Below are positions 42,651 to 48,259 of a DNA stretch of 64,000 nucleotides, piece by piece. The stretch covers positions 57,040,001 through 57,104,000 of the forward strand of contig OX597832.1 in NCBI GenBank assembly GCA_951406725.2. The letters run 5' to 3'. A program made the translations under genes and the position numbers. The first letter of the stretch is position 1. Each line of letters starts with the position of its first letter. Below the pieces are notes generated by a model, which saw nothing but the letters and a program-made list of their open reading frames with translations, made no database searches and had not been told where the DNA came from. The stretch is from Octopus vulgaris. Lineage: Eukaryota.

Positions 42651-44996
42651 TTGTGGATGTTTTATAATGAAAGTGCGGTCGTGGCTTTGTTGTAAGAAGT
42701 TTGCTTTCTAACCACATGGTTAAAGGTTCAGTCCCACTGCTTGAGTCTTTAAGTGTCTGCAAGAATACCATAGCCTCGGACTGACAAAAGCTTTGTGAGT
42801 GGATTTGGTAGGCGGAAACGCACATACATACATATATCCATACCTACATGTATGGTTATGTGAGTGTCTTGTATTGGTTTGTTAACGTCCCCGTAACTTA
42901 GTGGTTCGGCAAAGAGAACGTCAGAATAAGTACTAAACCTTTCATGCAAAAGACAGATACCTTTCAGGTGTTAAATTACGATTACATCAGAACGTAATGC
43001 AAAAAAAAAAAACCCAAAAACTTAGAAGGCGCGAACCCGTACATACTGACACACACATACACAAACACACACGCACACACACACACACACATACACACGC
43101 ACACACACACGCACACGCACACACATACACACACATCTGCAAAATGAAACTTGAAGTCTCGGATATACAGGAATCGATTTCATCAATTGCATTCATTCTT
43201 CCCTTAAAAATTCAAGACTTGAGCACGAATGGAAATTATGGAGAGTGGCTTTTAATTTGTTCTGAATTCCAATTCCATTCTGGGGGTCGATTCAACTGAC
43301 TTATATAAGATTTCCCTGACAAACATCTACCTACTACCTTTGCGCCATTTGTAAGCAATCAATATAATTTAGGCGGAATGTATTCTCGTCATCTGGCCCC
43401 CAACGAAATCTGTTATCTGTAATATAATGGCTTTTTTTTTTTTATTTATTTGTTACGTCGGCTGAAGGCTACACATTTTTTTACAGCAAGAAGTAGATTA
43501 AGTCCGTTGAATCATCAGTACATTCCTGACCCATATTTTATCGACCCTAAGAGTAGTAAATGGTGGGGGTTCATTAAATACAATGTCATTCCCCGGTGAG
43601 ATTTCACCTCCACAACCTCAGGCAACGAAACTAATTCATTCTCTCTCTGTATCAAGTCCACAACCCAAATATAATATCGACTTGTTTGTTTTTGTTTTGT
43701 TTTTCTTTTTCTCTTTGTTAAGAATAGGTTTACAACCAAAATACATTTGACTCAGTCAGTTACATTACTAATGCCTACTGAATCAAGCTGTTGATAAATT
43801 TGCTTGAAATAGCAGCCAGCCGAATTTATCTCAAAGCACACCCTGCCGATTTAAAAAGGTTACCTTACATAACGTAGTCATAGATTCACTATTTATTTAT
43901 TTATAAAAACTGAATGATTTCAGTTAGAAATGCCTTTGATAAATAAAACCTTCTTGATCTGGACCAGCCCACCCGGGGTTAAACAAGAACGAACACTTAG
44001 TTTTACTGCCAAAAAGAATTGCAACTTTAGATAAAAAATTAAAAAAAAAAGACGGAATTAAATAAAGCGAAACATTCTGTGCAATATTCTACCATTTTTA
44101 CCATTCTACTACCTTTTCACAGATCGAATAGTGATTTCTAACTTTGGCACACAATGCCTCACATTTACAAGAGAAGAAATTGTTGGTTTGAAAGAAATCT
44201 CTCTCCAAGACAGAGACTGGTTTATATATTGATTGGCGAAATCATTAAGAGCGTCGGACAAAATATTTTGTGGTAGGAGTGACTGCGTGGAAAGAAGCTT
44301 GCTTTTCTACTACATGGTTCCGGGTTCAGTCCCATTGCGTGGCATCTTGGGCAAGTGTCTTCTATTGTAGCTTTGGGCCGACCAAAGTCTTGTAGACGGA
44401 AACTGAAAGAAGCCCGTCGTATATATATATATACATATGTATGTATTTATGTGTGTGGATCTGCGTTTGTTCCCCCCACCACCACCACCATCACTGCTTG
44501 ACAACCAGTGTTGGTGTGTTTACGTCCGCATAACTTAGCAGTTTGGCAAAAAATATCGATAGAGTAAGTACCAGTTTTAAAAAAAGTACTGGGTTCGATT
44601 TATTTGATTAAAAATTCTTCGTGGCGGCACCCCAGCATGGCCGCAGTAATAATAAAAAAATATATAAAATATTTAATAACGGTCTTTTACGTTCTAGGTT
44701 CAAATTCCGCGAAGGTCGACTTAGTTTTCATCCTTCCAACTTGAATGAATTATATAGCATCGGACAAGAATTAGTGACGATTCAATTCTTTTACTGCTGG
44801 AAATCAGATACATCCATTCAAAATTTCATTATCTTCAACTATAAAAACAGTTTTATAAACCAAACTATCCTTTGTTGGAGAATGTTGTTTGAAACTACTT
44901 TCTGTTGACATATGTCAAGTTTATTGAGGCAGCATGACTCGCAGGAAATATCAATTCTATATTTTATTTTAATTTTTGATTTTCGACACATATTTG

Positions 44997-45422
44997 GGAT
45001 CTTTTCGGTTTGAACGGCAGTTTTTAAATATAATTTCCACGTAACTAAACACTTTTAAACTTCGTATACTGGTAGAATGTGTTTAAAAAAACATTTTTCT
45101 CATGGCTTTATTGAGAAAATTCTATGGTTTGTAAGATATTTGTTGCTTTTTTTCTTCAATTTCTGCAATTTCAACCAATCAATGACATCTATTGAGGTGA
45201 AAACATTCTGTGCCGTATGAATATGTCCCTCGTTTAAAAAACAGATTGGGTTTATTTACATTTGTGAAGAAAAAAAAGATACCCTTCCCCCACCCCTAAC
45301 CCTAACTAACCCTAACCCTAAAACAGATTGAAATGCAATAGGTCGATTCTAGGGTCATAATTATGGGTGACAATTTCATATGACACCGCTAGAAAAAACT
45401 GCCGTTCAGACCGAAAAGATCC
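44997..45422. mobile_element. GGATC-ended MITE with internal (CCCTAA)n; 47-bp flanking duplication
   Basis: TIRs GGATCTTTTCGGTTTGAACGGCAGTTTT / AAAACTGCCGTTCAGACCGAAAAGATCC. Flanks 44950-44996 and 45423-45469 match at 45/47. Confidence 0.9.
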
Positions 45423-46062
45423 ATCAATTCTATATTTTATTTTAATTTTTGATTTTCGGCACGTATTTGACATCGTTATTGGATTAACCATGAAGTTTAA
45501 TTTCGAAATTACAGGGTTAATATTCTCGTAAAATTTCCTGCGTGTAAAGGGAAAAATTGAAACCCTAGAAACTGAAAGCGAAGCATTAACCCCGACCCAC
45601 CAACGATATGTATGCTTAATTAAATGAACTTCTGGAAGGAACGCAACTAAACTGACATTATCGTTTTTTTTTTTACTACACAAACCGTTCATTACAAAAT
45701 CATGAAAAGAAAATTATTATATTTGATGGTTTACGAGACGCACTTCTTTAAAAATAATTTTTTTAAATAAAAACAAAAACTAGTGAGGGGCCTATATGCA
45801 AAGTTGGGCCGATGTTATTTGCTTTTACGGACTAAAATCTATTTTTTTCCCCCTGAACATGTATTGCTGAAATCAAGGTACACCAAATAAGAATAGTAAT
45901 GTAATAATATAATATTATTTCTACTAAAGATACAAGACCTGGAATCTTGCAGGCGGCTAAGTCGACTCAAATACTCCGAAAGGATGAAAGGTAAAGTCGA
46001 CCTCGGCGGAATTTGAACTTAAATTTGAACTAACGCACCGCCTTAATATATCTCTTTTTCTT

Positions 46063-46460
46063 TTTTACTTGTTTCAGTCATTTGACTGTGGCCATGCTGG
46101 AGCACCGCCTTTAGTCGAGCAAATCGACCCCAGGACCTATTCTTTGTAAGCCTAGTACTTATTGTATCGGTTCCTTTTGCCGAACCTCTAAGTTACGGGG
46201 ACGTAAACACACCAGCATCGATTGTCAAGCGATGTTGGGGGTGGGGACAAACAGACACACAAACACACATCTATATATATATATATATACATATATGCGA
46301 CGGGCTTCTTTCAGTTTCCGTCTACCAAATCCACTCACAAGGCTTTGGTCAGCCCGAGGCTATAGTAAAAAACACTTGTCCAAGGTGCCACGCAGTGGGA
46401 CTGAACCCGGAACCATGTGGTTGGTAAACAAGCTACATACCACACAGCCACTCCTGCGCC
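46063..46460 (-). mobile_element. SINE family A, young CpG-rich copy
   Basis: Full-length match to family A. Confidence 0.9.
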
Positions 46461-46924
46461 TATATCATATAATAATTTCAAATTTTGGGCACAAGGCCTG
46501 CAATTTGGGGGTAAGGGGGTAAGTCGATTACGTCAACCTCAGTGTTCGACTGGTACTTAATTTATCGACCCTGAAAGGATCAAAAGCATAGTCGAACTCG
46601 GTGGAATTCGAACACAGAACGTAAAGACAGACGAACTGCCGCAAGACAGACGAACTGCCAGTGCGCCGCTTTTGTATATCATATAACAATAGCCGATCCT
46701 TCGATATTTGTGTAGAGAATGTCCGTAAGAGAAGACGTCATTCACCCTCTTTTTCCAGCCTAGCCTCGTTTATGTATGTCATGAAGGAAGATTATGTGGG
46801 AGAAGAACGTCGTTTCTCAATAACGAAGGATTGTCTAATAATATAATAACATATATCGTATTTGATGGCATATAAAATGCACTTATTTTTCCTAAAAAGT
46901 TACAATACCTAAAATAAAAAATGG

Positions 46925-47491
46925 GGATCTTTACGGTTTGAACGGCAGTTTTTAACAATTTCTAGGTAACTAAAAAATTTTAAACTTCGTATACTGGTAG
47001 AATGTGTTTATAAAACATCTTTTATAACATCTCGACGCTATAATGTTTCAGCCGGCTTTAATAAAAGAAATAATGGATCTTTTCGGTTTGACCGGCAGTT
47101 TTTTAAAATAGTTTCCACTTAACTAAACACTTTTAAACTTCGTATACTGGTAGAATGTGTTTATAAAACATCTTTTTCTCTTGGTTTTATTGAGAAAATT
47201 CTATAGTTTGTAAGATATTTGTTGCTTTTTTTCTTCAATTTCTACAATTTCAACCAATCAATGACGTCTATTGAGGTGAAAGCATTCTGTGCCGTATGAA
47301 TATGTCCCTCGTTTAAGAAACAGATTGGGTTTATTTACATTTCTGAAGAAAAAAAGATACCCTTCCCCACACCCCTAACCCTAACCCTAAAACAGATTGA
47401 AATGCAATAGATCGATACTAGGGTCATAATTATGGGTGACAATTTCATATGACACCGCTAGAAAAAACTGCCGTTCAAACCGAAAAGATCC
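46925..47491. mobile_element. composite GGATC MITE (partial copy + 43-bp captured piece + full copy at 47075)
   Basis: Flanked by CTTATTTTTCCTAAAAAGTTACAATACCT plus an A-run on both sides (46882-46924 and 47492-~47541). Confidence 0.85.
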
Positions 47492-48259
47492 CTTATTTTT
47501 CCTAAAAAGTTACAATACCTCAAAAAAAAAAAAAAAAAAGGTCCTTATATGTAAGGTTAGGCCTCCAATGAGCTTTAAATGCAGCAAAAACGTTCTTGAA
47601 TATACGCTGCTAAAATCACGGTACATCTAACTTGACCGTGCAACTCTTACGTAATAAAATACGATCCATTAGAAAGCAAAACAAAACAAAACAGGACAAT
47701 ATCGTCAAGGTCAACCTTGCTTTTCATCCTTTTGAGATCGATATAGAAAATCGATGAAATTATCTATCAATGGCAGTGGATTGGCGGGAACTGTAAGAAT
47801 GTAAAACCGGATGCTTTGCAAGTATTTGTTCCGGTTCTTTGCATTCTTGAGTTCAAATTCCACCACAGCCTTCTTGGGTGATAGACATAACCACTGCCAC
47901 CTGTTTCAACACCAGCGCCTGGCACGCTTGTGGGGGGGGGGGAGTGCTTTAGTAGAGTCCACCCTGTTGTAAGAAGTATTACGGAAAAGGCTCTGCTTTG
48001 AGAATAACTTCCCCCAGTCCACTCTCAGTCTCGGAGGAATTGTAAAAAAGGTCATTGACACTGCCTTCTCTCATGATTAAAAGATAAAAAGAAAAGAAAA
48101 CGGTGAAAAATTAACCAAAGATAATCATTTTCGTATAGAACACACACACACAAAGATGTGTGCACAACACTGCAGGGCACTGATATTTTAAATGGCGGTG
48201 CCCCAGCATAGCCACAGTTCGTGAGCTGAAACTAGATGAATTAAATATATGCTTATGTT

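What the first reader, a model, noticed from the sequence alone, without database searches (positions are those of the whole stretch)
44950..47541. MITE family producing very long (43-47 bp) flanking duplications
Seen: the GGATC...GATCC MITE (~28-bp TIRs, internal CCCTAA repeats) at 44997-45422 is bracketed by a 47-bp direct repeat (45/47 identical) that abuts both TIRs exactly. The composite at 46925-47491 is bracketed by a different ~43-bp repeat (29 bp identical plus an A-run). Copies at 55692 and 60162 have no duplication and sit at truncated SINEs, which suggests adjacent deletions. Known: eukaryotic DDE superfamilies make 2-11-bp TSDs, while long variable TSDs are known mainly from some bacterial IS (IS1634/IS1549-type). 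Inference: an unusual integration mechanism, or an unclassified transposase family.
Basis: partly seen in the sequence, partly recalled or inferred. Interest (0 to 1): 0.72.

Follow-up and report, generated by a model that had tools for sequence, protein, structure and literature searches.

The report
Jumping DNA that sometimes duplicates flanks
This is a small non-coding transposon, likely of the known Merlin group, that normally duplicates 8 bases where it lands; about one copy in twenty, including the two flagged here, instead sits between 13-213-base duplications, likely because its two ends were joined to two different nearby target sites.

Summary
Both long flanking repeats are real: 47 bp (45/47 identical) and 43 versus about 50 bp. 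They are not the family's target-site duplication. Of 359 copies scored genome-wide, 254 have an 8-bp TSD with 0-1 mismatch. GG termini, 29-30-bp TIRs and the 8-bp TSD fit Merlin/IS1595, but no autonomous partner was found. A minority class remains: 17 of 355 copies outside the window (4.8%) carry 13-213-bp duplications abutting both TIRs. Their lengths are continuous, with no 43-47-bp mode and no helical period. Both ends of each duplication score as complete 8-bp target sites (p=4e-8; held-out p=0.02). The duplicate copies are as old as the transposition burst. Fifty further copies lack a TSD yet have target-like flanks. Paralogous empty sites show the 47-bp segment once. Best reading (inferred): the two ends were joined to two neighbouring ordinary targets, most likely by hybrid-element insertion between sister-chromatid copies, as known for P and Ac. 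Rivals are uncoupled two-step insertion and recombination after a local hop. This is a known kind of by-product at a notably high rate, not a new transposase family.

The parts
44950..44996 (+). Left copy of the 47-bp flanking duplication; its last 8 bp are a target-like site
44997..45422 (+). MITE, subfamily A, 426 bp, 29-bp TIRs, internal CCCTAA tract near 45294-45321
45423..45469 (+). Right copy of the 47-bp duplication (45/47); its first 8 bp are a target-like site
44785..45531 (.). Old interspersed host repeat interrupted by the MITE; paralogs carry the duplicated segment once
46882..46924 (+). Left copy of the 43-bp duplication flanking the composite
46925..47023 (+). Left-end fragment (about 98 bp) of a subfamily-B copy
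47024..47031 (+). 8-nt filler resembling the adjacent MITE sequence (repair-type junction, inferred)
   Evidence: sequence
47032..47074 (-). 43-bp inverted copy of 60037-60079 (41/43), captured inside the composite; its TIR-abutting end is a target-like site
47075..47491 (+). Full MITE, subfamily A, 417 bp
47492..47541 (+). Right copy of the composite's duplication (50 bp, A-run longer than in the left copy)
55692..56076 (+). MITE copy without TSD
60037..60079 (+). Source of the captured 43-bp piece, 13 kb away, now without an element
60162..60576 (+). MITE copy without TSD

Best explanation
This is an abundant non-autonomous TIR transposon with an ordinary 8-bp TSD, likely moved by a Merlin-type transposase, and its long flanking repeats likely arose when a left end and a right end from sister-chromatid copies were paired (hybrid-element insertion) and joined to a second ordinary 8-bp target tens of bases from the first. 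Shown: the 8-bp norm; a class of about 5% with 13-213-bp duplications abutting both TIRs; a full target-like 8-mer at both ends of each duplication; an age equal to the burst; single-copy paralogous empty sites. Inferred: (1) after replication the transposase pairs one end from each sister copy and cuts them; (2) the hybrid inserts at the nearest available target, in the freed flank or the homologue; (3) one product carries the stretch between the old and new target on both sides of the element, the other loses it and shows no TSD; (4) the broken flanks rejoin through their shared 8 bp, leaving no footprint.
For: 8-bp TSD in 254 of 359 copies, with a palindromic preference A|SAwwwwTS|T. 17 of 355 non-window copies carry long duplications (95% CI 2.8-7.6%) with exponential-like lengths (KS p=0.78) and no 10-11-bp period (Rayleigh p 0.58-0.98). 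Inner halves of the terminal 8-mers score 0.92 against -0.80 inside the same duplications (16 duplications, p=4e-8; 15 without the window copy, p=3e-7) and are not different from held-out true TSD halves at 0.57. The held-out set of 3 duplications gave p=0.02. Duplicate copies differ at 73 of 1187 sites (6.1%), TSD pairs at 4.6% (biased low), and elements are about 3% from the majority, so the duplications date to the active period. No-TSD copies (50 of 359) have target-like 9-mers on both sides (36 copies: 0.47 and 0.71 against background -1.40, p=8e-14), as reciprocal products would. Long and no-TSD copies more often have another TIR within 1 kb (5 of 13 and 7 of 28 against 18 of 181; Fisher p=0.01 and 0.053). 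Head-duplicated copies L134/L135, L154 and the tail-duplicated L009 keep the 8-bp TSD at their outer ends. The window composite has an end joined to a target 13 kb away in inverted orientation. Hybrid element insertion is defined for copies on sister chromatids or homologues (PMC2775673, PMC3744419, passages read).
Against: No reciprocal small deletion was measured: 0 of 36 no-TSD copies could be bridged by paralogs at a consistent gap, and the relaxed test did not separate classes. In the 14 held-out no-TSD copies the right-flank score was only 0.02 (left 0.64). No duplication above about 230 bp was found although 307 copies had at least 1 kb and 73 had at least 4 kb of flank; P-element products are recalled to span far larger sizes. 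Only 2 of 5 partial-plus-full composites were closest to their own neighbour, and the window composite joins two different subfamilies. The clustering counts are small and two long copies (L213) are each other's neighbours. The chimera test had no power. The motif result fits any model with two full target engagements. No transposase with these TIRs was found.
Confidence: 0.5

Rival explanations
1. Uncoupled two-step insertion: one transpososome carrying one excised element joins its first end at one 8-bp target, slides or rebinds, and joins the second end at a neighbouring target; replication or repair copies (or deletes) the stretch between. This would be a eukaryotic counterpart of the long variable repeats of IS1549 and IS1634.
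For: Predicts full targets at both ends, short exponential lengths with nothing above about 230 bp, no footprint, and the same age as the burst.
Against: Does not by itself predict the excess of neighbouring copies, self-derived head duplications with an intact outer TSD, or an end joined 13 kb away in inverted orientation.
Confidence: 0.22
2. Two ordinary insertions and a recombination: the element hopped locally so that two chromatids or haplotypes carried it at sites tens of bases apart, and an exchange inside the element gave the duplication and its reciprocal deletion.
For: Gives the same structure with two full targets; local clustering and the 13-kb capture point to local movement.
Against: Independent insertions within 200 bp are far too rare at this copy density to give 5% (own estimate). 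A same-chromatid hop should leave an excision footprint at one outer boundary; none was evident by eye and terminal mismatches were not clearly raised (16 of 206 against 39 of 714). The duplications are not younger than the burst.
Confidence: 0.2
3. A true long staggered cut by an unusual transposase that makes 43-47-bp or discrete long TSDs.
For: Duplications abut both TIRs exactly; outer halves of the end sites are above background (0.26 against -0.80, p=1e-4).
Against: 8 bp is the norm; lengths are continuous with no helical period, whereas IS481EU classes are about 10 bp apart (PMC10045372, passages); inner halves are target-like; both subfamilies show it; 14% of copies have no TSD.
Confidence: 0.05
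4. Ordinary insertion into a pre-existing tandem repeat, or an assembly artefact.
For: Explains 2 of the 20 loci first called long (L259, L361: 184-bp arrays, 7 of 8 TSD match).
Against: An ordinary insertion always leaves an 8-bp match, absent at both window sites (3 of 8). Eleven of 12 paralogs of the host repeat align to both flanks with one copy of the segment (offset -47 in 5 of 5 and 4 of 5). The two copies differ by 6%. No third copy lies beside any of the 16 tested.
Confidence: 0.03

Closest known systems
Merlin / IS1595 (IS1016 group) DNA transposons and their MITEs
   Same: 5'-GG termini, TIRs within 24-462 bp, 8-bp TSD (PMC8101967, passages). Merlin transposases are plentiful in this genome (150 matches scored); one family with other TIRs has 8-bp TSDs and a similar target preference.
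   Different: No transposase-bearing element with these TIRs was found in 50 Merlin loci examined. A long-duplication class was not mentioned in the passages read.
P-element hybrid element insertion; maize Ac/Ds alternative transposition
   Same: Ends of two copies join a new target and give flanking duplications and reciprocal deletions (PMC3744419, PMC2775673, passages; Preston, Sved and Engels 1996 seen as title only, content recalled).
   Different: Here seen as fixed fossils in about 5% of copies, all 13-213 bp, around one element. Reversed-ends products in maize carry two element copies, and only three were found for 26 hAT families (PMC3744419 section 10).
IS1549 / IS1634 long variable direct repeats
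   Same: Variable long repeats abutting the element (8-514 bp; no mechanism proposed as of 2008, PMC2266710, passage).
   Different: There it is described as a property of those elements' insertions; here it is a minority beside a fixed 8-bp norm, in a different transposase lineage (inferred).
IS481EU
   Same: One eukaryotic family with more than one TSD length (PMC10045372, passages).
   Different: Discrete lengths near 4, 15 and 25 bp and TGT/TNT termini; here GG termini and a continuous distribution.

Membership tests
Merlin (IS1595-like) | TIRs begin with 5'-GG | tested here: met
   GGATC at both ends
Merlin (IS1595-like) | TIR length 24-462 bp | tested here: met
   29-30 bp
Merlin (IS1595-like) | 8- or 9-bp TSD | tested here: met
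   254 of 359 with 8 bp, 0-1 mismatch
Merlin (IS1595-like) | Autonomous partner encoding DDE_Tnp_IS1595 with the same TIRs | tested here: inconclusive
   None among 50 loci cut from the 150 scored matches (476 candidates); no shared longer internal sequence among 81 partial ends
Merlin (IS1595-like) | Target preference shared with a transposase-bearing Merlin family (supporting, not defining) | tested here: met
   25 TIR flanks score 0.09 against background -1.41, p=0.005; the two flanks of one element are not independent
hAT | 8-bp TSD | tested here: met
hAT | (C/T)A termini and nTnnnnAn or nnnTAnnn targets (recalled) | tested here: not met
   GG termini; position 2 is A in 64% and position 7 is T in 64%
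IS481EU-like discrete long TSDs | Discrete lengths about 10 bp apart | tested here: not met
   Rayleigh p 0.58-0.98 on 19 lengths
IS1549/IS1634-type long-repeat elements | Long variable repeats as the regular outcome of insertion | tested here: not met
   19 of 359
Hybrid element insertion products | Each end joined to an ordinary target site | tested here: met
Hybrid element insertion products | Reciprocal adjacent deletions of similar size | tested here: inconclusive
   50 no-TSD copies, mostly target-like flanks, no size measured
Hybrid element insertion products | Element non-chimeric (ends from identical sister copies) | tested here: inconclusive
   Star-like family, no 5'-3' linkage even in 8-bp copies
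Hybrid element insertion products | Precursor allele with 8-bp TSD at one end site; transposase dependence | not testable with these tools
   Needs population or sister-species assemblies and an assay

The most novel reading that the evidence does not exclude
A Merlin-type transposase uncouples its two strand transfers in up to a fifth of events (about 5% duplications, about 14% no TSD), joining each end to its own full 8-bp target within about 200 bp. That would be a eukaryotic version of the unexplained long variable repeats of IS1549/IS1634, readable from hundreds of fossil insertions, and a steady source of small duplications and deletions in this genome.
Probability: 0.22. Interest if true: 0.65.

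Novelty: new variant of a known kind. Interest (0 to 1): 0.4.

Why it matters
The finding removes a false lead: there is no long-TSD transposase family here. What remains is a measurable rate of aberrant end joining for a likely Merlin-type element. At 4.8% of at least 2,812 copies, over a hundred small flanking duplications are expected genome-wide, plus more copies without a TSD. That fossil set could tell hybrid-element insertion from uncoupled insertion and bears on how long variable repeats form in bacterial IS. It also warns that TSD-based annotation misses about a fifth of such copies.

Tried and rejected
Autonomous partner: searched PF12762, examined 50 Merlin loci for TIRs and similarity and clustered partial ends; none found. 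hAT, P, MuDR and Zisupton transposases were not searched, and no search for two TIRs 1-3 kb apart was obtained. Rate comparison with a transposase-bearing Merlin family failed: only 12 exact TIR matches. Deletion sizing by paralogs: the control returned the -8 offset in most of 16 bridged 8-bp loci, but no no-TSD copy was bridged at a consistent gap; the relaxed version did not discriminate. Chimera test had no power. No exchanged TSDs between neighbouring copies, apart from one 7-of-8 match between two left flanks in the window, taken as chance. Rfam: no match at 44500-48000. Earlier findings of this scan: none. Two loci first called long were re-filed as ordinary insertions in 184-bp arrays; 4 copies with flanks under 100 bp were dropped; L218 (nested insertion) was left out of the motif and divergence tests and the 13-bp case out of the motif test.
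Full report
Observation. The window holds four full copies and one left-end fragment of a 385-426-bp element with 29-30-bp TIRs starting GGATC. The copy at 44997-45422 lies between 47-bp direct repeats, 45/47 identical, that touch both TIRs. The composite 46925-47491 lies between a 43-bp and a 50-bp repeat that differ in an A-run. The copies at 55692 and 60162 have no TSD. Random flank pairs gave 0 of 1500 such repeats and same-locus offset controls 2 of 1007.

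The family norm. One exact 41-mer of the right end occurs 2,812 times, a lower bound on copy number. I gathered 363 distinct TIR-bounded copies from best BLAST hits and first-listed exact matches; this is not a random sample and favours intact ends. Four with flanks under 100 bp were dropped. Of 359 scored, 254 have an 8-bp TSD with 0-1 mismatch, 15 have 6 of 8, 19 have other short repeats (mostly 5-10 bp), 50 have none, 20 were called long and one is the window composite.

Classification. GG termini, TIRs of this size and 8-bp TSDs are the stated marks of Merlin (PMC8101967, passages). The genome has many DDE_Tnp_IS1595 sequences (150 scored of 476 candidates). A transposase-bearing family with other TIRs has 8-bp TSDs (6 elements) and flanks that score above background on this family's target matrix (25 flanks, p=0.005). 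No autonomous element with these TIRs turned up in 50 loci or among 81 partial ends. So it works like a Merlin MITE, but membership is not proven. Other 8-bp superfamilies were judged only by termini and target pattern, from recall.

The minority class. Two of the 20 long calls are ordinary insertions in 184-bp tandem arrays (L259, L361). That leaves 17 of 355 copies outside the window (4.8%, CI 2.8-7.6%), plus the two here. Lengths are 13, 23, 28, 29, 30, 33, 43, 47, 66, 68, 82, 85, 91, 112, 118, 125, 129, 139 and 213 bp, median 68, compatible with an exponential and without helical period. None longer was seen, with 307 copies having at least 1 kb and 73 at least 4 kb of flank. Both subfamilies are affected. 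The duplicate copies differ by 6.1% (73 of 1187 sites, 17 pairs), TSD pairs by 4.6% (biased low by the mismatch cut-off), and elements by about 3% from the majority, so the duplications are as old as the burst.

Not pre-existing. An ordinary insertion always leaves an 8-bp match, absent at both window sites. The 44997 copy interrupts an old interspersed repeat; 11 of 12 paralogs align to both flanks with a single, shorter version of the segment. These are paralogous, not orthologous, empty sites. Public runs laid on 44600-45700 did not settle the orthologous state.

Two full targets. A single long staggered cut predicts target-like sequence only at the two outer cut points. Instead the inner halves of both terminal 8-mers score like true targets: 0.92 against -0.80 inside the same segments (16 duplications of 20 bp or more, p=4e-8; each end alone p=0.001 and 2e-6; without the window copy p=3e-7), with held-out true halves at 0.57. 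Three duplications found after the matrix was fixed gave 0.57 against -0.86 (p=0.02). Outer halves score 0.26, above background and not significantly below true sites. Each end was therefore most likely joined at its own ordinary 8-bp site. A caveat: a subunit acting in trans could read the far half of a site, so this does not exclude a single complex engaging two sites in turn.

Companion products. The first 36 no-TSD copies have target-like 9-mers on both sides (0.47 and 0.71; background -1.40; true 1.27); 14 later ones gave 0.64 and 0.02. Some of this class are decayed TSDs or composites. No deletion size could be measured. Long and no-TSD copies have neighbouring TIRs more often (5 of 13, 7 of 28, against 18 of 181). 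Some copies carry a duplicated head or tail yet keep the 8-bp TSD outside (L134/L135, L154, L009); 2 of 5 tested partials were closest to their own neighbour, and nested insertion followed by recombination could also give them. The window composite carries 43 bp copied in inverse from 60037-60079, unique to these two places, with a target-like 8-mer at the TIR; its two parts come from different subfamilies.

Mechanism. I commit to hybrid-element insertion between sister copies (0.5): ends from two sisters pair, insert at a second target close to the first, and give a duplication on one product and a deletion on the other. All these steps are inferred. The process is described for P and Ac/Ds (PMC2775673, passages; PMC3744419, passages and section 10; Preston, Sved and Engels 1996 seen only as a title in reference lists, content recalled). 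Rivals are uncoupled two-step insertion by one complex (0.22), local hop plus recombination (0.2), a true long stagger (0.05) and pre-existing repeats (0.03).

Comparison and novelty. IS1549 and IS1634 make 8-514-bp repeats with no model proposed as of 2008 (PMC2266710, passage; the primary IS1549 paper was not held). IS481EU makes discrete lengths (PMC10045372, passages). A Bari1 array with a roughly 500-nt flanking duplication is noted in PMC5932611 (passages). Aberrant HIV integrations with duplications were seen as a search listing only (PMC5041404). An octopus repeat annotation lists Merlin and MITE classes and has no occurrence of TSD or target site (PMC13282606, three passages; supplements not opened). 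PMC7023781, PMC7642927 and PMC3439972 (passages) added little. Nine searches of the held library showed no report of such a class for Merlin or for a MITE family; subscription journals and Repbase were not searchable. Verdict: a real but minority by-product of an ordinary 8-bp element, a new variant of a known kind, interest 0.4.

Noticed in passing
L134/L135 (G000:C2:4633748-4639532): Tandem array of at least 16 copies of the MITE's first 249 bp ending in one full copy, with the 8-bp TSD kept at the outer ends: a satellite growing from a MITE head.
   Followed up: partly
L069:2931-3063: A right-facing TIR fragment and a MITE left end are separated by a 75-bp near-perfect palindrome resembling subterminal repeats of a Merlin family.
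   Followed up: no
L063-L066, L073, L228: A 308-aa Merlin-type ORF in several 87-99% identical 3-kb copies bounded by microsatellites with no TIRs found.
   Followed up: partly
L239, L236: Merlin loci arranged as long fold-backs (765 + 511 bp and 781 bp inverted arms).
   Followed up: no
L172, L152, L109, L177: Fold-back derivatives of the MITE with two left ends; L172, L152 and L177 have 8-bp TSDs, so two left ends can likely transpose together.
   Followed up: partly
L018, L092, L117, L218, L250, L295: Older related MITE families with TIR variants (about 75-85% identical over the first 200 bp), nested with this family in both directions.
   Followed up: no
window 33875-34825: Young tandem array, 8.2 copies of 116 bp at 99%.
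   Followed up: no
window 62380-62931, 42160-42614, 58579-58819: Tandem arrays of a 118-184-bp abundant repeat; the same 184-bp unit mimics long duplications at L259 and L361.
   Followed up: partly
G000:C19:44414382-44489750: Cluster of five degenerate Merlin matches within 75 kb.
   Followed up: no
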